Virus record (IMG/VR): IMGVR_UViG_2778261247_000018
Source: a virus
Taxonomy: Duplodnaviria > Heunggongvirae > Uroviricota > Caudoviricetes
Length of the DNA stretch: 4,319 nucleotides
Direction: 5' to 3' (one strand)
Both the position numbers and the translations under genes were made by a program. This document shows positions 1 through 4,319 of this stretch, in pieces. The notes below the pieces were generated by a model. That model searched no databases. It was given only the letters and a program-made list of their open reading frames with translations, and was not told the origin of the DNA. Numbering within the stretch: the stretch's first letter is position 1; each line of letters starts with the position of its first letter.

Positions 1-1134
1 TCTGGTGTGCTGACAGAGGCTGCCATTGACGAGCCACGATTTGAACGTGATGGCCTGCTTATTGAGGGGCAAAGAACTAATCTTCTGCTTAATTCAACAA
101 ATCCATCTAAATGGAATAAGTCAAGCAATCTGGAACTCACAGAAATATCCACGGATTCTTTTAATTTTACTTATGGTAGATTTACTGTAAAAGATACTCT
201 TATTGGTCAAACAAGTGCGATTAGTATCGTAACGGTTTCTGGCAGTAAAGGATTTGATGTCACAGGTGATGAAAAATATGTGACCATTTCATGCCGTGTC
301 AGAAGTGATGTTGAAAATATAAGGTGTCGTTTAAGATTTGAACATCATGATGGTTCTACTTACACTTTTTTGGGAGATGCTTACCTCAATTTATCAACAC
401 TTTTAATTGAACTAACTGGTGGTGCTGCAAATCGTATTATTTCAAAGGCAGTAAAAGATGAGGCTACTGGTTGGATTTTCTTCCAAGCTACAATTAATGC
501 ACTGGATACTGAGAGCATGATTGGTGCGATGGTTCAGTACGCTCCAGTAAAAGGTTCAGGCACAGTATCCGGAGACTATCTGGATATCGCAACTCCACAA
601 GTGGAAGGTGGATCAAGTGCTTCGTCATTTATTGTAACTGATATAACTGCAAGCACTCGCGCAAGCGATATGGTGACAGTCCCAATCAAGAATAACCTTT
701 ATAATCTTCCTTTTACAGTTCTTTGTGAGGTACATAAGAACTGGTATAAAACGCCAAATGCAGCACCGCGTGTTTTTGATACCGGCGGTCATCAAACCGG
801 AGCGGCTATTATTCTTGGCTTCGGTCGTTCAACAGATTACGACGGATTTCCTTATTGTGATATAGGTTTGGCTAACAGACGGGTAAACGAAAACGCATCG
901 CTTGAAAAAATGGTTATGGGGATGCGTGTAAAGTCAGATCAGTCTACGTGCTCAGTAAGTAACGGGCGTATATCCAGCGAAACAAAAACCACATGGTCAT
1001 ATATTCAGAACTCCGCAATTATCCGTATTGGAGGCCAGACTACAGCCGGGTTACGCCATTTATTTGGTCATATCAGGAATTTCAGAATATGGCACAAGGC
1101 ATTGACTGATGCTCAGATGGGGGAGTCAATCTAA
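1..1134 (+). CDS. Phage tail fibre / receptor-binding-like structural protein, C-terminal portion (5' end outside window); C-terminus resembles a LamG / concanavalin-A-like lectin domain
   Basis: The frame is open from base 1 (codons 1-3 and 4-6 are tct ggt, no stop), so the listed GTG at 7 is probably internal. Stop TAA at 1132-1134. The C-terminal motif ...LFGHIRNFRIWHKALTDAQM is, from memory, typical of LamG-like jelly-roll domains in phage tail proteins. Lies directly upstream of a recognisable tail fibre gene on the same strand, with the next gene overlapping its stop (TAATG). Confidence 0.55.
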   Translation, partial: SGVLTEAAIDEPRFERDGLLIEGQRTNLLLNSTNPSKWNKSSNLELTEISTDSFNFTYGRFTVKDTLIGQTSAISIVTVSGSKGFDVTGDEKYVTISCRVRSDVENIRCRLRFEHHDGSTYTFLGDAYLNLSTLLIELTGGAANRIISKAVKDEATGWIFFQATINALDTESMIGAMVQYAPVKGSGTVSGDYLDIATPQVEGGSSASSFIVTDITASTRASDMVTVPIKNNLYNLPFTVLCEVHKNWYKTPNAAPRVFDTGGHQTGAAIILGFGRSTDYDGFPYCDIGLANRRVNENASLEKMVMGMRVKSDQSTCSVSNGRISSETKTTWSYIQNSAIIRIGGQTTAGLRHLFGHIRNFRIWHKALTDAQMGESI

Positions 1135-1415
1135 TGAAAGATTTAACACTCAAATTTGAAGACAGGGCCGACTTTTCGGCCTTTATGGATAGCACTGGCT
1201 ATTATGATGACGAGTCGATGCAGGATAATATTCTTATTGACGTGATAGGTAACGTGTACAAAGAAACCGGAGAACTGACTGAAGATGGCGAACCGGTATG
1301 TGTTAAGGAAGACGGATATTTTGTAAACGTGCGCATCATTAATGATGTGAAAACACCGTCATTATTCGATGAATACGCGGTTGCTGTTGAGCATCAACTT
1401 CGTGGCTGGATGTGA
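1134..1415 (+). CDS. Hypothetical small acidic protein (93 aa), translationally coupled to the upstream fibre-like gene; possible fibre assembly chaperone or adaptor
   Basis: ATG at 1134-1136 overlaps the upstream stop (TAATG). Shine-Dalgarno GGGGGAG at 1119-1125 with about 8 nt spacing. Stop TGA at 1413-1415, followed 9 nt later by the next gene. Protein is rich in D/E with no hydrophobic segment. I recognise no family; the functional suggestion is by position only. Confidence 0.55.
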   Translation: MKDLTLKFEDRADFSAFMDSTGYYDDESMQDNILIDVIGNVYKETGELTEDGEPVCVKEDGYFVNVRIINDVKTPSLFDEYAVAVEHQLRGWM

Positions 1416-1424
1416 GGAAGGAAA

Positions 1425-2465
1425 ATGGCTACATCGACAGTAATTCCTGATGATATCAAAACGCTAAAATCCGACGTTAGCAAATTAAAAACCGATCAAG
1501 GAAACTACGCAACAAAATCTTATGTAGACAATAAAACAACATGGAATGGTTATTGCAATGTAATCTATGATCAAAAAACATTGCCAACAACTGGAACTAT
1601 ATTCAGCGGTAAGCTGCATTTGTCAAATAAAACTGGTGAAACGGAAAACGCTTCTAGTGACATATATACCAGAAAAAATATTGACGGTACAAAAGATACA
1701 ATGACAAGGATTGTCACACACAATGGAACAAAAGGTATCTTTTGGGACTTTAGTGATCTTTACGGAGGAACTTTAATTTTCCCTGGTACTTCAGGTTATC
1801 TGAAAATGGGGAACTGTCTCATGTCGTATGGGGATCGTGTAGATAATGCCCTGATTAAATTTGATTATACAGACACATTACAGATCAAATATGCTAATCA
1901 CGGGTCGACCATGACATTAAACACACAGGGAACCGCTTATGCTGGTGTTACTGCTAAATTGTGGGGCAACTCTAGCCGTCCGGTTGTTTATGAAGTCGGT
2001 GTTGATGGTGGCGCTTATATGTTCTATGCGCAGAAAAATACCGATAACACCTATATGTTAAGCGTTAATGGTGCATGTCATGCCACCGCATTTAACCAGC
2101 ATTCCGACCGGGATCTGAAAGACAACATTCAGGTGATCGATAATGCAACCGACCGCATCCGTAAAATGAACGGCTATACATACACGCTTAAAGAAAACGG
2201 TATGCCCTATGCAGGTGTCATTGCACAGGAAGCTCTGGAAGCAATCCCAGAAGTTGTAGGTTCCGCAATGAAATATCAGGACGGTGCAAGCGGATCGGAA
2301 GGTGAAGAAGGTGAACGTTATTACACAGTAGATTATTCTGGTGTTACTGGCTTGCTTGTTCAGGTAGCCAGAGAGTCAGACGACAGAATAACAGTACTGG
2401 AAGAAGAAAACGCAGAATTAAGGCAAAGATTATCTGCAATTGAGGCGACGCTTGCGTCTAAATAA
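1425..2465 (+). CDS. Tail fibre protein with C-terminal intramolecular chaperone (peptidase S74 / endosialidase-chaperone-like) auto-cleaving domain
   Basis: RBS AGGAAGG at 1415-1421, ATG at 1425, stop TAA at 2463-2465. The C-terminal ~120 aa contain ...NQHSDRDLKDNIQVID... followed by a long helical tail (...EENAELRQRLSAIEATLASK). The Ser (codon 2103-2105, residue 227) and Lys (codon 2118-2120, residue 232) are spaced as in the Ser-Lys dyad of endosialidase / T5 pb1-type chaperone domains, as I recall them. Confidence 0.8.
   Translation: MATSTVIPDDIKTLKSDVSKLKTDQGNYATKSYVDNKTTWNGYCNVIYDQKTLPTTGTIFSGKLHLSNKTGETENASSDIYTRKNIDGTKDTMTRIVTHNGTKGIFWDFSDLYGGTLIFPGTSGYLKMGNCLMSYGDRVDNALIKFDYTDTLQIKYANHGSTMTLNTQGTAYAGVTAKLWGNSSRPVVYEVGVDGGAYMFYAQKNTDNTYMLSVNGACHATAFNQHSDRDLKDNIQVIDNATDRIRKMNGYTYTLKENGMPYAGVIAQEALEAIPEVVGSAMKYQDGASGSEGEEGERYYTVDYSGVTGLLVQVARESDDRITVLEEENAELRQRLSAIEATLASK
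2103..2462 (+). other. Predicted intramolecular chaperone / autoproteolytic domain of the tail fibre (cleavage expected at Ser227, leaving a mature fibre of about 226 aa)
   Basis: S-D-R-D-L-K motif with Ser and Lys five residues apart, then a conserved-looking helical C-terminus. Domain boundaries are approximate. Confidence 0.65.
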
Positions 2466-2476: not shown

Positions 2477-2794
2477 ATGCGCCCCGTTTTATTGGGTAGG
2501 ATGAAAATGGATATAACACCTTTTCTTCATGCGCTTTGTGCTGTGGCTGCGCAGGTACTGATTGGCCTTTTTACCGGAAACTGGGCTTACGGTGCGATAG
2601 CCGGTTGTACGTTCTTCATTGCGCGTGAACACACCCAGGCAGAATATCGCTGGATTGAAATGTTCGGGCATGGCAAGCGAATGAATATGCCGTGGTGGGG
2701 CGGTTTTGATCCGCGCGCGTGGGATGTAGCAAGCCTGATGGATTTTGCTGTGCCGGTGGTGGCGTGTCTGCTGATCTGGATGTTGATCCGTTAA
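2477..2794 (+). CDS. Small two-helix membrane protein (about 96-105 aa) in moron position; function unknown
   Basis: ORF 2477-2794, stop TAA at 2792-2794. ATG at 2507 has the better RBS (AGGA at 2498-2501, 5-nt spacer), so the true start may be 2507. Two hydrophobic segments (ALCAVAAQVLIGLFTGNWAYGAIAGCTFFIA and FAVPVVACLLIWMLI) flank a Trp-rich loop. Hand-counted GC of 60-nt lines is about 48-58% here against 32-37% in much of the fibre genes. Confidence 0.6.
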   Translation: MRPVLLGRMKMDITPFLHALCAVAAQVLIGLFTGNWAYGAIAGCTFFIAREHTQAEYRWIEMFGHGKRMNMPWWGGFDPRAWDVASLMDFAVPVVACLLIWMLIR

Positions 2795-2795
2795 A

Positions 2796-2845
2796 TATAA
2801 AAAGTAAAAAGCCGCAGTAACTTGTCATGATAGGATACTGCGGCT
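2796..2845 (-). terminator. Probable rho-independent terminator for the minus-strand dinI-like / int transcripts
   Basis: 10-bp stem 2810-2819 (AGCCGCAGTA) pairs with 2836-2845 (TACTGCGGCT) around a 16-nt loop. On the minus strand the hairpin is followed by TTTTTACTTTTTATATTT (plus 2796-2809 region). On the plus strand it is not followed by a U-tract. Confidence 0.5.
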
Positions 2846-2911
2846 GGCTGGTTAACTTTCGATAGTGCGAGTATTGAATGATTTCCAGCCGTTACTGATT
2901 TTACGTGCTAA

Positions 2912-3160
2912 TTAGTGAACAAACCACTCGTCAGCAGACTCCCAGGTATCTTTCAGAGTTTCCTGAACAAAAGTTTTAGCTGAATCTTTATCGGCGGTGC
3001 GCGTAACAGAAAGGCCATCGTTGCTGGTGGCTTTTACGATCACCTCTACATCGTCATAACGTTTACTGATGCGTCGGGTTAATTCTTCCTTTAACGCATC
3101 CACAGCACCGTTTGGCATTTTAGTCATTTTTTCTTTGGCTATGCAGATCTCAATACGCAT
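2912..3160 (-). CDS. dinI: DinI-family protein (DNA-damage-inducible protein I homologue, 82 aa)
   Basis: MRIEICIAK...[14 protein letters not shown]...LSV...[13 protein letters not shown] aligns by eye along its whole length with E. coli DinI as I recall it (81 aa; MRIEV.IAK...GAIDALAGELSRRI...ETWESADDWFV). ATG is the reverse complement of 3158-3160, SD GAGGG sits 6 nt upstream on the minus strand, stop TAA is the reverse complement of 2912-2914. LexA boxes lie immediately upstream. Confidence 0.88.
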
Positions 3161-3221: not shown

Positions 3222-4319
3222 TCAAGAGGTCTTATTTCTGCTCCTTTGGAGCTCTTCAAAACGATTATGTAAAGATTTCGGATACAGTTCGGTATATACC
3301 TGCCATAGCACGTTTAATGAACGATGCCCTGTAACCTGAGCGACTTCCTCAATACTAAAACCAGCCTCAAATAAGCGACTTGCCCCTTCTCTACGCAAAT
3401 CATGGTATCGCAGATCTTTAATACCTAATTTGCTTCTTACCCTCTGAAATCCTGCAGTAACAGAAGTGCTGTTATATGGAAAAATGAATTCCGATTTTTT
3501 GGGCTGTCGTTGGACGATATCCCAGGCTTCCCCAAGCAAGGCTACTTTCATGTGGTTGCCTTCCTTTTTGCGTGGATCTTTCCTGTCTCTTACGAGTATA
3601 GATTTTTGTTCCTGGTCGAGATCTTCCCATCGTAACCGGCATACTTCTCCGATCCGCATACAGGACCACACAGAAAATTTGAGGATATCAACGAACGGAA
3701 TTTTTGAGCATTTATGAGTAGATCGTTGTTGAAGGCCTTCAATGAGCATGTCCAGTTCATCAGATGCTGGTCTACGATTACGACGGTTTGATTTACCAAT
3801 CAAACCAAGTTTAAGTAGATATGGGCGAGCGCTTTTCGCCGGGTTTGATGTGTAATTAATTCCGTATACAGGTTTGGCCGCATCCAGAACACTGCCAAGA
3901 TAACTAACATCGTGGCTGACTGTTGCTGGACCTGCACCAGCGTTGTTTCTTAGCCTGCAATGTTCAATTACGTCATTTTCTGTCAGTTCAGATAGTTTGA
4001 TCGCGGAGATGTCACTATCCATAAGCAGTTCCAGCACATATCTTTTAGTACGGCCTGCTTTACCTCCGGCATTTGGGTCATTTAAATATTTGTGTAGTAA
4101 GTCACGGACTGTAAGTCCGTCAACTGCATTTGATGATGGAATGCCATATAGATCTAATTCCATCACTTTCTGTGTTCCCCATGTTTTGGCATGAGCATGT
4201 TTAGGGAATGTTTTGCTTTCCCTGTAAGTGATAACACCTTTTTCTTTGATAATCACATTACAGCGATAGCGTGGTGTGCCATCGGATTTTAGTCGTTTCT
4301 CTATGTTATAGTACGCCAT
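3222..4319 (-). CDS. int: Tyrosine-type site-specific recombinase / phage integrase (365 aa as seen; start codon at the window edge, so the N-terminus could extend beyond it)
   Basis: Catalytic-domain motifs in the expected order in the C-terminal half: ...MRIGEVCRLRWEDLD... (box I Arg), ...YHDLRREGASRLFEAGFSIEEVAQVTGHRSLNVLWQVYTELYP (H-x-x-R, then GH, then a Tyr 10 residues later). The last block resembles the Rci / Xer / phage-integrase box II (GHRSxNxLxxY). Stop TGA is the reverse complement of 3222-3224. The ATG is the reverse complement of 4317-4319, the final three bases of the window. Confidence 0.85.
   Translation of the reverse strand: MAYYNIEKRLKSDGTPRYRCNVIIKEKGVITYRESKTFPKHAHAKTWGTQKVMELDLYGIPSSNAVDGLTVRDLLHKYLNDPNAGGKAGRTKRYVLELLMDSDISAIKLSELTENDVIEHCRLRNNAGAGPATVSHDVSYLGSVLDAAKPVYGINYTSNPAKSARPYLLKLGLIGKSNRRNRRPASDELDMLIEGLQQRSTHKCSKIPFVDILKFSVWSCMRIGEVCRLRWEDLDQEQKSILVRDRKDPRKKEGNHMKVALLGEAWDIVQRQPKKSEFIFPYNSTSVTAGFQRVRSKLGIKDLRYHDLRREGASRLFEAGFSIEEVAQVTGHRSLNVLWQVYTELYPKSLHNRFEELQRSRNKTS

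What the first reader, a model, noticed from the sequence alone, without database searches (positions are those of the whole stretch)
2477..2794. GC-rich small membrane protein 'moron' between the receptor-binding genes and the integrase side: candidate exclusion or conversion factor
The gene is compositionally distinct from much of the flanking fibre genes (about 48-58% GC against 32-37% in hand-counted lines). It may have its own weak promoter (2440-2468) and is followed by a hairpin. It occupies the position where temperate phages typically carry lysogenic-conversion or superinfection-exclusion genes. Known precedents for small membrane or lipoproteins next to receptor-binding genes that mask the cognate receptor include T5 llp and phi80/N15 cor. 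The protein has two predicted transmembrane helices and a Trp-rich loop (MPWWGGFDPRAW), and I cannot assign it to any family.
Basis: partly seen in the sequence, partly recalled or inferred. Interest (0 to 1): 0.6.

Follow-up and report, generated by a model that had tools for sequence, protein, structure and literature searches.

The report
Uncharacterised membrane protein ending tail-fibre operons

Summary
The ORF is real but starts at 2507, not 2477, giving 95 aa (2507-2794, + strand). It is under purifying selection (dN/dS about 0.17). It belongs to PHROG 1443 ('unknown function') and matches nothing in Pfam, NCBIfam, PADLOC or the PDB. 1,887 of 5,426 complete E. coli genomes carry it (median 2 copies).

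AlphaFold gives a confident three-helix membrane protein (pLDDT 91). H8, R40, E41, Q44, E46, R58, W72, D79 and P83 are invariant or nearly so. The positive-inside rule places the conserved polar loop in the cytoplasm.

In E. coli prophages it is the last cistron of the tail-fibre operon, 10-41 nt after the preceding stop codon, with no promoter-like site of its own. Its 52% GC matches the phage backbone; the flanking fibre cassette and int/dinI are the AT-rich outliers. The downstream hairpin has its U-tract on the minus strand, so it terminates dinI.

In other phages (P2/HP1-like, P22-like, a DGR phage, gpJ-type, a jumbo phage, and 77 divergent viral contigs) it again sits next to tail fibre or tailspike genes. 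Aeromonas and sphingomonads have chromosomal copies outside phages.

My best reading (confidence about 0.35) is an accessory inner-membrane factor that acts on a conserved host membrane component, not a Cor/Llp-type outer-membrane receptor mask. The function is unproven.

The parts
2507..2794 (+). Coding sequence of the 95-aa three-helix membrane protein (PHROG 1443); the stop codon is 2792-2794
   Evidence: PGAP annotates these coordinates. PHROG 1443 matches full length at E = 2.7e-58. The ATG is conserved in 81/81 loci, dN/dS is about 0.17, and none of the 51 alleles has a stop codon. AlphaFold pLDDT is 91.3.
2495..2501 (+). Ribosome-binding site (GGTAGGA) 5 nt upstream of the 2507 ATG
   Evidence: Read directly from the sequence. 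The equivalent position in the other cassette types is AAGGAGG.
2477..2506 (+). Most likely untranslated intergenic sequence with a weak 4-bp hairpin, not part of the protein.
   Evidence: The 2477 ATG is absent from the common upstream variants listed. The family alignment begins at MD.... The fold of 2462-2506 is no better than shuffled sequence, z = -0.56.
2624..2725 (+). Codons 40-73: the conserved polar segment (REHTQAEYRWI ... R..MPWWGGFDPRAW), predicted to be an amphipathic helix plus a Trp-rich loop at the cytoplasmic face
   Evidence: R40, E41 and W72 are invariant, and Q44, A45, E46 and R58 are 90% or more conserved, across 107 representatives at 50% identity or less. The loop carries a mean of 5.5 K/R against 0.1 in the TM1-TM2 turn.
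7..2465 (+). AT-rich fibre cassette directly upstream, presumably co-transcribed: C-terminal part of the spike-fibre protein (7-1134), orf93 (1134-1415), and a 346-aa fibre with a Peptidase_S74 chaperone domain (1425-2465)
   Evidence: Pfam and PHROG assignments. GC is 41-42% against a 53-60% backbone. The order tail protein, orf93, variable cassette, target is seen across the 80 IMG/VR loci.
2810..2845 (-). Hairpin with a 10-bp stem, followed on the minus strand by UUUUUACUUUUU (+ strand 2799-2810). It is the intrinsic terminator of the convergent dinI-like gene and also marks the end of the + strand fibre operon.
   Evidence: Minus strand -18.1 kcal/mol, z = -4.55; plus strand -22.3 kcal/mol, z = -3.65, with no U-run.

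Best explanation
SHOWN. 2507-2794 encodes a 95-residue integral inner-membrane protein with three predicted helices, and it is under purifying selection. It is the last cistron of the tail-fibre operon of a lambdoid prophage integrated at dusA. It belongs to a stand-alone family (PHROG 1443) found across Proteobacteria. In phages with different tail architectures, members of this family sit directly beside the receptor-binding gene (side fibre, gpJ, P2-type fibre, P22-type tailspike, or a DGR-diversified variable protein). The invariant polar residues are H8, R40, E41, Q44, E46, R58, W72 and D79.

INFERRED. These residues sit at the membrane-cytoplasm interface. The protein is an accessory (cargo-type) factor, not a virion or lysis component. 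From the inner membrane it binds or acts on a host component conserved across Proteobacteria, for example the lipid-linked glycan assembly or export machinery that builds surface receptors, or the inner-membrane route used for phage DNA entry. The result would be altered receptor display or blocked incoming phage, protecting the lysogen or the infected cell. It does not act by masking an outer-membrane receptor directly. Because its DNA is much better conserved than that of the fibre genes, it also serves as the conserved downstream flank across which fibre cassettes are exchanged.
For: Real gene: dN/dS about 0.17, 51 alleles, no stop codons. It is present in 1,887 of 5,426 E. coli genomes, in 568 clusters at 90% identity and in 438 clusters at 50% identity, all 58-146 aa and stand-alone among the 150 listed.

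Membrane protein: AlphaFold pLDDT 91 with three helices, supported by hydropathy.

Cytoplasmic polar face: K/R counts are 5.5 in the loop against 0.1 in the turn.

Linkage to receptor-binding genes:
- 80/80 E. coli viral loci have the tail protein upstream, with three alternative cassettes between orf93 and the target.
- Comamonas: after gpJ.
- Leclercia P2/HP1-like prophage: abutting an S74 fibre gene.
- phiHAP-1: between the tail-fibre assembly gene and the sheath gene.
- DGR locus L115: between the VR-bearing gene and avd.
- In 77 divergent viral contigs, the PHROG families most often hit by upstream ORFs are almost all tail spike, tail fibre, tail or J.

Not a fibre chaperone: virulent coliphages keep the S74 fibre gene but only a 51-codon remnant of this gene, and chromosomal copies exist with no phage genes nearby.

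Not the holin: the prophage has its own lysis cassette.

Conserved partner or chemistry: R40, E41 and W72 are invariant across alpha-, beta-, gamma- and deltaproteobacterial members. That does not fit an arms-race interface with phage proteins.

Cargo neighbourhood: sitABCD, a reverse transcriptase with a SLATT-domain gene, dinI, or the host junction lie immediately downstream.
Against: There is no experimental or homology-based evidence for any activity. No promoter-like site was found, so expression in the lysogen, which exclusion or conversion would require, is not supported by sequence. The gene may be expressed only late in lytic growth. The topology rests on the positive-inside rule and an AlphaFold monomer; helix 2 is only weakly hydrophobic. 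Long-term chromosomal retention in Aeromonas at a fixed locus looks more like a cellular housekeeping role than anti-phage cargo. Sitting at the end of an operon next to receptor-binding genes could simply reflect where insertions are tolerated. No operon partner or domain fusion gives a functional clue.
Confidence: 0.35

Rival explanations
1. It is a cellular-type small membrane protein, for example a minimal enzyme, a metal- or lipid-binding protein, or a membrane-homeostasis factor. Its primary role would be housekeeping or stress-related. Phages picked it up as a passenger, so it benefits membrane physiology during infection or lysogeny and has no specific role against phages or in receptor display.
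For: Chromosomal copies lie in non-phage contexts: Aeromonas has pirin, then the gene, then a RIO1 kinase, syntenic in several species, and sphingomonads carry it next to varied housekeeping genes. The polar residues are invariant in an enzyme-like way. The family always stands alone.
Against: In viral contigs it is placed specifically beside tail fibre and tailspike genes, across at least six tail architectures. A random passenger would be hard put to explain that. Distribution in bacteria is patchy, not universal: 67 loci among 185,579 species genomes matched the two motif patterns.
Confidence: 0.2
2. It is a lysis-related membrane protein: a holin, an antiholin or a lysis-timing modulator expressed at the end of the late operon.
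For: It is small, has three helices (the architecture of class I holins), and appears to be co-transcribed with late genes. Some loci have endolysin or holin genes one or two genes downstream, for example L110 and L212. An M-K-M start resembling the lambda S dual start is present in this window. One of 107 relatives hits Phage_holin_8 weakly, E = 0.0036.
Against: The prophage has its own class II holin, lysozyme and Rz-like lysis protein upstream of the terminase. L212 has a separate recognisable holin, phrog_198. The C-terminal tail averages 6 residues with 0.7 K/R, so it is not the charged holin tail. The long invariant polar loop is unlike holins. M-K-M appears only in some upstream variants, mainly the S74 cassette type. 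Non-phage chromosomal copies exist. No holin PHROG matches even at E of 10 or less.
Confidence: 0.1
3. It is an assembly, maturation or infection-assisting factor for the adjacent receptor-binding protein, for example a membrane-associated helper for fibre folding or attachment.
For: It is tightly linked to receptor-binding genes, with start codons abutting or 10-41 nt from the fibre stop codon, and upstream genes are systematically tail fibres or spikes. Genes next to fibre genes are often chaperones (established for Tfa, gp38 and gp57A; from my own knowledge).
Against: The same protein follows unrelated receptor-binding folds: S74 fibres that carry their own intramolecular chaperone, P22-type tailspikes, gpJ and a DGR variable protein. 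Viable virulent coliphages keep the S74 fibre but only a 51-codon remnant of this gene. Chromosomal copies lack any fibre gene. An integral membrane protein would be an unusual fibre chaperone.
Confidence: 0.08
4. One reading: a Cor/Llp-like factor that physically masks the cognate outer-membrane receptor of the adjacent fibre.
For: Its position next to receptor-binding genes matches that of cor (phi80, N15) and llp (T5) (from my own knowledge). One search shows the position in E. coli prophages.
Against: There is no signal peptide or lipobox; Cys11 is not conserved (I/V/L in most relatives). Predicted periplasmic exposure is only a 2-4 residue turn and a short tail. There is no sequence similarity to any annotated PHROG. 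The same allele accompanies three different fibre cassettes.
Confidence: 0.04

Closest known systems
PHROG 1443 (with its fragment family PHROG 34165), 'unknown function'
   Same: Full-length profile match: E = 2.7e-58, residues 1-95 against profile positions 1-95 of 97. Distant phage homologues (phiHAP-1 ORF19, Aeromonas phages) hit the same profile.
   Different: Nothing differs; this is its family. The family has no assigned function, no Pfam or NCBIfam model, and no literature that I could find.
Cor (phi80/N15/HK022) and Llp (T5): receptor-masking lipoproteins encoded next to receptor-binding genes
   Same: A small accessory gene placed beside the receptor-binding gene, and a plausible protective role.
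   Different: Cor and Llp are outer-membrane lipoproteins with a lipobox that bind FhuA (from my own knowledge). This protein has no lipobox and is a helical integral membrane protein whose conserved face is predicted to be cytoplasmic. It has no sequence similarity to them.
Small inner-membrane superinfection-exclusion proteins (T4 Imm, HK97 gp15, P22 SieA)
   Same: Small helical inner-membrane proteins encoded within or beside tail gene clusters that act alone. P22 SieA is described as an inner-membrane exclusion protein in PMC10883804; the other two are from my own knowledge.
   Different: No detectable homology. This family is conserved across proteobacterial classes with invariant polar residues, which is unlike fast-evolving exclusion proteins. 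Prophage expression is undemonstrated.
Seroconversion genes beside tailspike and int genes (P22 gtrABC, Sf6 oac, epsilon15 and D3 O-antigen polymerase inhibitors)
   Same: The same genomic slot, between the receptor-binding gene and int/att. They are inner-membrane proteins acting on lipid-linked glycan assembly (from my own knowledge).
   Different: No similarity to GtrA or the acyltransferase families in Pfam. At 95 aa it is much smaller than Gtr or Oac enzymes. No glycan phenotype is known.
Class I holins (lambda S type)
   Same: About 100 aa, three helices, and late expression.
   Different: No charged C-terminal tail, a long invariant polar loop, and no adjacency to the endolysin. The prophage has a separate holin, and non-phage chromosomal copies exist.

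Membership tests
PHROG 1443 | Significant full-length match to the family profile | tested here: met
   E = 2.7e-58, residues 1-95 against profile positions 1-95 of 97.
Moron (independent transcription unit added to a phage genome) | Own promoter immediately upstream | tested here: not met
No + strand sigma-70-like site of 9/12 or better upstream in the window or in two other cassette types. The intergenic gap is only 10-41 nt. This is a consensus scan only, so weak or non-sigma-70 promoters are not excluded.
Moron (independent transcription unit added to a phage genome) | Own terminator immediately downstream | tested here: inconclusive
   A strong hairpin lies at 2810-2845, but its U-tract is only on the minus strand. 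It might still attenuate + strand transcription.
Moron (independent transcription unit added to a phage genome) | Nucleotide composition distinct from the surrounding phage genome | tested here: not met
   GC 52.4% and GC3 54% match the backbone genes (53-60% and 54-67%). The neighbouring fibre cassette is the outlier.
Moron (independent transcription unit added to a phage genome) | Present in some related phages and absent from others, and found in unrelated phages | tested here: met
   Found in 69 of 50,697 phage records, including lambdoid, P2-like (phiHAP-1), P22-like and jumbo phages.
Cor/Llp receptor-masking lipoproteins | N-terminal signal peptide with a lipobox cysteine | tested here: not met
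   There is no lipobox. Position 11 (Cys here) is I/V/L in most of 107 relatives. The N-terminus runs directly into helix 1.
Cor/Llp receptor-masking lipoproteins | Sequence or fold similarity to Cor or Llp | tested here: not met
   Only PHROG 1443 and 34165 match significantly; the only other hits at E of 10 or less are weak matches to two unannotated PHROGs. There is no significant PDB or BFVD fold match.
Cor/Llp receptor-masking lipoproteins | Blocks adsorption through the cognate outer-membrane receptor | not testable with these tools
   This needs adsorption and plating assays.
Holins (class I) | Encoded in a lysis cassette next to the endolysin | tested here: not met
   The prophage's holin, lysozyme and Rz-like lysis protein lie upstream of the terminase, more than 20 kb away. 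Only a few of about 140 diverse loci have an endolysin nearby, and one of those has a separate holin.
Holins (class I) | Highly charged cytoplasmic C-terminal tail | tested here: not met
   The C-terminal tail averages 6.1 residues with 0.73 K/R; here it ends in '...LIR'.
Holins (class I) | Conserved dual-start motif (holin and antiholin) | tested here: not met
   M-K-M is present only in some upstream variants, mainly the S74 cassette type. The others have AAGGAGG followed by a single ATG.
Small inner-membrane superinfection-exclusion proteins (Imm, gp15, SieA) | Small integral inner-membrane protein acting alone | tested here: met
   Three predicted helices, a stand-alone family, and no conserved partner gene. 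Membrane localisation is predicted, not measured.
Small inner-membrane superinfection-exclusion proteins (Imm, gp15, SieA) | Homology to a characterised exclusion protein | tested here: not met
   No annotated PHROG, Pfam or PADLOC family matches.
Small inner-membrane superinfection-exclusion proteins (Imm, gp15, SieA) | Expressed from the prophage and blocks DNA entry of superinfecting phage | not testable with these tools
   This needs lysogen transcriptomics and infection assays.
Tail-fibre assembly chaperones (Tfa, gp38 type) | Soluble protein required for the adjacent fibre, co-varying with the fibre C-terminus | tested here: not met
   It is an integral membrane protein. The same allele follows three different cassettes. 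Virulent phages that keep the fibre retain only a remnant. Whether it is required was not tested experimentally.
PhoR N-terminal membrane domain (PF11808) | Score above the Pfam gathering threshold | tested here: not met
   12.8 bits against a 27.1-bit cut-off, E = 0.16. Only 4 of 107 relatives reach E of 0.05 or less, best 0.0032. This is probably helical-hairpin composition.

The most novel reading that the evidence does not exclude
PHROG 1443 is a minimal (about 95 aa) membrane enzyme or ligand-binding module. Its invariant H8, R40-E41, Q44, E46, R58, W72 and D79 form a site at the cytoplasmic leaflet. Phages of many tail architectures carry it next to their receptor-binding genes to rewire a universal envelope precursor pathway, for example undecaprenyl-phosphate-linked glycan assembly. 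It would thereby control display of the receptor the neighbouring fibre or spike recognises. That would be a previously unrecognised, widespread and mechanistically new form of receptor control or lysogenic conversion.
Probability: 0.12. Interest if true: 0.8.

Novelty: new member of a known kind. Interest (0 to 1): 0.45.

Why it matters
About a third of complete E. coli genomes carry one to seven copies of this gene, yet every database calls it 'hypothetical'. It is among the best-conserved genes at the host-range end of lambdoid prophages, and it recurs beside tail fibre and tailspike genes in very different phages. If it controls receptor display or phage entry, it would affect phage host-range prediction, phage-therapy susceptibility of E. 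coli lineages, and how we understand the exchange of receptor-binding modules. It is short, acts alone and has clear invariant residues, so it could be tested directly: express it, challenge with phages, and profile the surface glycans. Even if it has no such role, its conserved DNA is a useful landmark for the downstream boundary of swappable fibre cassettes.

Tried and rejected
1. Sequence homology. Pfam, NCBIfam and PADLOC scans and a PDB sequence-profile search gave nothing significant. A lenient PHROG scan returned only its own family plus weak matches to two unannotated PHROGs. Scanning 107 divergent relatives against Pfam gave only noise-level hits: PhoR N-terminal domain in 4/107 and Phage_holin_8 in 1/107.

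3. Domain fusions. All 150 listed representatives are 58-146 aa and stand-alone, so no guilt-by-fusion is possible.

4. Conserved operon partners in bacterial chromosomes. None were found; the neighbours are heterogeneous.

5. Holin hypothesis. Rejected as the main reading. I first thought L146/L147 had a lysozyme downstream, but that gene is an EF-hand protein.

6. Tai tail-assembly-interference systems (PMC11364771). These are unrelated: different loci in phi80 (orf63/orf64), and the paper never mentions transmembrane segments.

7. Literature. Searches for the PHROG, FIG and WP identifiers and for the PhiR phages carrying the gene found nothing on this gene. The paper describing the Lambda_ev and mEp460 isolates lists lambda morons but does not name this gene in its text.

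8. Gene calling. My first crude ORF caller failed in high-GC loci. I replaced it with forced-target, GC3-filtered calls and with the look-up of encoding contigs.

9. An early idea that the polar loop is periplasmic, based on basic C-terminal tails in a few homologues, was dropped after counting charges over 107 sequences.
Full report
WHAT THE WINDOW IS

The 4,319-nt window is 100% identical to the right end of a lambdoid prophage integrated next to dusA in E. coli strain VTB97074v. On the + strand it carries, in order:
- the C-terminal part of a spike-fibre tail protein (7-1134; PHROG 1419, a weak ConA-like lectin signal);
- a 93-aa ORF (1134-1415; PHROG 1361, function unknown);
- a 346-aa tail fibre with a Peptidase_S74 intramolecular chaperone domain (1425-2465);
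- the ORF in question.

Converging on the minus strand are a DinI-like gene (2912-3160) and a tyrosine integrase (3222-4319).

CHECKING THE OBSERVATION

The start codon. An ORF does run 2477-2794, but its start is almost certainly 2507.
- PGAP annotates 2507-2794, 95 aa, as a hypothetical protein.
- The PHROG profile aligns from residue 11 of the 105-aa version.
- In 81 E. coli loci the sequence ATGGATATA at this position is invariant.
- The upstream sequence falls into three unrelated classes according to which fibre cassette precedes the gene. Two of them have AAGGAGG just upstream of this ATG, and the 2477 ATG is absent from the common variants listed.

Composition. The ORF is 52.4% GC (GC3 54%). 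The three upstream genes are 41-42% (GC3 31-43%), and int and dinI are about 43%. Gene by gene, though, the prophage backbone (portal, capsid, tape measure, gpJ, lom) is 53-60% GC, and host genes are about 50-52%. Seventy per cent of 288-nt windows in the prophage are at least as GC-rich as the ORF. So the ORF has backbone composition, and the compositional outliers are the fibre cassette and the int/dinI block.

The proposed promoter. By my reading of the sequence, 2440-2468 is TTGAGG-17-TAATAT, 8 of 12 matches. The scan found no + strand site of 9/12 or better upstream here or in the two other cassette types, whereas shuffled sequence gives 1.5-2.6 such sites per region.

The hairpin. It is real: a 10-bp stem at 2810-2819/2836-2845, z = -3.65 on the + strand and -4.55 on the minus strand. 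The U-tract is on the minus strand only, so it is the terminator of the convergent dinI gene.

IS IT A REAL GENE?

Yes. The 81 loci yield 51 distinct alleles. None has a stop codon, and dN/dS is about 0.17. The gene is found in 1,887 of 5,426 complete E. coli genomes (median 2 copies, up to 7), always annotated 'hypothetical protein'. The wider family comprises 568 clusters at 90% identity and 438 clusters at 50% identity. All of the 150 listed representatives are 58-146 aa, so none carries a fused domain. Members occur in Gamma-, Beta-, Alpha- and Deltaproteobacteria.

STRUCTURE AND CONSERVATION

AlphaFold2, run with a 27-sequence alignment, gives a confident model (mean pLDDT 91.3, pTM 0.75) with helices at 4-23, 26-53 and 74-94. 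Hydropathy is strong for 4-23 and 76-95 and weak for 25-39.

Across 107 representatives at 50% identity or less:
- R40, E41 and W72 are invariant.
- H8, Q44, A45, E46, R58 and P83 are at least 90% conserved.
- Y47, R48, I50, G29, P62 and D79 are at least 75% conserved.

Charge counts over the same set are a mean of 5.5 K/R in the 35-residue segment 40-74, against 0.1 in the TM1-TM2 turn and about 0.7 in each terminal tail. By the positive-inside rule the conserved polar segment is cytoplasmic. This holds whether helix 2 fully spans the membrane or not. Predicted periplasmic exposure is then minimal.

GENOMIC CONTEXT IN E. COLI

All 80 IMG/VR loci have the tail protein upstream. Where orf93 is present (65 loci), the gap to the target is 19, about 728 or about 1,096 nt. 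The longer gaps hold a 234-aa fibre fragment or the 346-aa S74 fibre. The target's DNA stays 90-99% identical throughout.

Downstream lies a variable cargo slot or the host junction:
- dinI and int in this window;
- a tail-fibre-assembly remnant, then ybhB and bioA (L159);
- sitABCD (L160), where the fibre genes are degraded by an IS3 element but the target is intact;
- a reverse transcriptase with a SLATT-domain gene, then dinI (L161), where the target has an internal stop.

The target is therefore the last backbone gene of the fibre operon and marks the edge of the cargo slot. It is not itself the compositionally foreign insert.

CONTEXT IN OTHER PHAGES

- Halomonas phage phiHAP-1 (P2-like): between the tail-fibre assembly gene and the sheath gene. 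From memory, this is the slot where P2 carries Z/fun.
- A Comamonas prophage: after a 2,520-aa gpJ-like protein and a 72-aa ORF.
- A Leclercia P2/HP1-like prophage: the start codon abuts the stop of a 939-aa S74 fibre gene.
- A Comamonas/Pigmentiphaga prophage with a diversity-generating retroelement (DGR): between the gene carrying the 119-nt variable repeat and avd, the template repeat and the reverse transcriptase.
- An Acidovorax prophage: between a small ORF that follows two large, probably tail-fibre, genes and an endolysin-like gene.
- Aeromonas phage 4_4512 (P22-like): upstream of the gp10 homologue.
- Aeromonas jumbo phages: an intact 87-aa copy with all key residues, between the terminase and a tail fibre.

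To test the pattern systematically, I retrieved viral contigs with a degenerate pattern for A-Q-A-E-Y-R-W, which excludes the E. coli allele. Of 86 loci (80 from the pattern scan, 6 from two earlier scans), 77 were confirmed with a family HMM. Of the 74 that had upstream ORFs, 52 had a same-strand ORF of at least 300 aa within two genes upstream. The 25 PHROG families most often hit by upstream ORFs were almost all tail spike, tail fibre, tail protein or central fibre J. Downstream genes were heterogeneous: some endolysins, a separate holin, head-tail adaptors, DNA-ejection proteins and a reverse transcriptase.

Two further observations constrain the function.
- Virulent coliphages (6947, ZCEC08, PBM-2, HC8A) keep an S74 fibre gene but only a 51-codon remnant of this gene. 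The fibre therefore does not need it.
- Aeromonas species carry a syntenic chromosomal copy (pirin, the gene, RIO1 kinase) with no phage genes nearby. Sphingomonads carry it in varied housekeeping neighbourhoods with no recurrent partner. The protein therefore acts alone and can be retained by cells.

HOMOLOGY AND LITERATURE

MECHANISM

Shown: a conserved, stand-alone, helical membrane protein encoded as the terminal cistron of fibre operons and systematically linked to receptor-binding genes.

Inferred:
(i) It is accessory. It is not a virion component or a fibre chaperone, because the same allele follows unrelated receptor-binding folds, virulent phages let it decay, and cells keep it without fibres.
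(ii) It is not the holin. The prophage has its own class II holin, lysozyme and Rz-like lysis protein. The C-terminal tail is short and uncharged. The M-K-M start is not conserved.
(iii) Its invariant polar residues across proteobacterial classes point to a conserved host ligand or partner, or to catalysis, at the cytoplasmic leaflet. A fast-evolving interface with phage proteins would not look like this.
(iv) Other accessory genes found beside receptor-binding genes include cor, llp, gtrABC, oac, the epsilon15 and D3 polymerase inhibitors, and sieA (from my own knowledge; SieA per PMC10883804). By that analogy, the most likely outcome is altered receptor display or blocked entry, exerted from the inner membrane.

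I put this at about 0.35. The rivals are a cellular-type membrane protein carried as a passenger (0.2), a lysis-related role (0.1), a fibre-assembly helper (0.08) and direct Cor/Llp-type receptor masking (0.04). The remainder is unknown.

The main weakness is expression. No promoter-like sequence was found, so by sequence the gene is late-expressed, and a benefit to the lysogen is unproven.

A by-product that the data do show: the gene's conserved DNA forms the downstream flank of the exchangeable, AT-rich fibre cassette.

COMPARISON, NOVELTY AND VERDICT

The protein is a member of PHROG 1443 and of no characterised family. In position it resembles Cor and Llp, and in architecture it resembles small inner-membrane exclusion proteins or seroconversion factors. 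It fails the testable membership criteria for Cor/Llp (lipobox, homology), for holins (cassette adjacency, charged tail, dual start) and for classical morons (own promoter, deviant composition).

I rate it a new member of a known kind: accessory membrane proteins adjacent to receptor-binding genes. Interest is moderate (0.45). The specific claims of the finding are only partly right and the function remains unknown. Even so, the family's prevalence, strong conservation and systematic linkage to receptor-binding genes make it a worthwhile and easily tested target.

Noticed in passing
window 1134-1415 (+): orf93 (PHROG 1361, unknown function, no Pfam hit) follows the spike-fibre gene with an overlapping stop/start (both at 1134). 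It is present in 65 of 80 E. coli loci, always between the tail protein and the variable fibre cassette. It may be a fibre-assembly or adaptor protein.
   Followed up: partly
window 7-2465, compared with L001 1-19884: The three-gene fibre cassette is an AT-rich block (41-42% GC, GC3 31-43%) inside a 53-60% GC prophage backbone. Between orf93 and the target, E. coli prophages carry one of three alternatives (gap of 19, about 728 or about 1,096 nt). This looks like modular exchange of host-range genes between conserved flanks.
   Followed up: partly
window 2855-2827 (minus strand): A promoter-like site (TTAACC-17-TATCAT, 9/12) overlaps the hairpin and points antisense into the target gene. The same site recurs in L024 (5349-5321). 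Its frequency is within chance expectation, so it may mean nothing, but it could drive an antisense transcript.
   Followed up: no
window 2835-2915 (+): PGAP annotates a 'capsid protein' pseudogene fragment with an internal stop. The translation ([25 protein letters not shown]) looks spurious and overlaps the terminator hairpin. In another prophage (L159 4814-4933) the same slot holds a C-terminal remnant of a tail-fibre assembly gene.
   Followed up: partly
L115 3785-7054 (Comamonas nitrativorans); L116 is similar: A diversity-generating retroelement in which a PHROG 1443 gene (5001-5300) is inserted between the variable-repeat-bearing target gene (VR 4810-4928) and avd (5305-5691), the template repeat (5697-5815) and the reverse transcriptase (5990-7054). 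A second avd-like repeat lies at 7087-7166.
   Followed up: partly
L156 3771-11161 (same prophage, upstream of the terminase): The prophage's lysis cassette is interrupted by IS21-family and IS66-family elements lying between the class II holin and the lysozyme/Rz genes. A DUF1327 gene and a side-fibre N-terminal gene are pseudogenes. The prophage is probably defective, yet the target ORF is intact.
   Followed up: no
L001 14140-14478: A 112-aa hypothetical gene between the tail assembly gene gpI and gpJ is strongly AT-rich (37% GC, GC3 25%) within a 55-59% GC neighbourhood. Compositionally it is a far better 'moron' candidate than the ORF under study.
   Followed up: no
L161 4896-6795; L160 4886-8335: In other E. 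coli prophages the slot just downstream of the target holds a reverse transcriptase with a SLATT-domain gene (a defence-system-like pair) or the sitABCD iron/manganese transporter. This marks the slot as a cargo hotspot.
   Followed up: no
L155 6001-9645 (Aeromonas rivipollensis chromosome): The non-phage chromosomal homologue lies between pirin and a RIO1-type kinase, about 1.2 kb from two tandem lipid A acyltransferase genes. The association may be coincidental, but it is the only envelope-related neighbour seen repeatedly (4 Aeromonas loci).
   Followed up: partly
L005 3965-4120 (virulent Escherichia phage 6947; also ZCEC08, PBM-2, HC8A): A 51-codon unannotated remnant of the family (…IPWWGGFDWRAWDLPSLLD) lies directly after an 859-aa tail fibre gene. 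This is evidence that pieces of the gene travel with fibre modules and then decay in virulent phages.
   Followed up: partly
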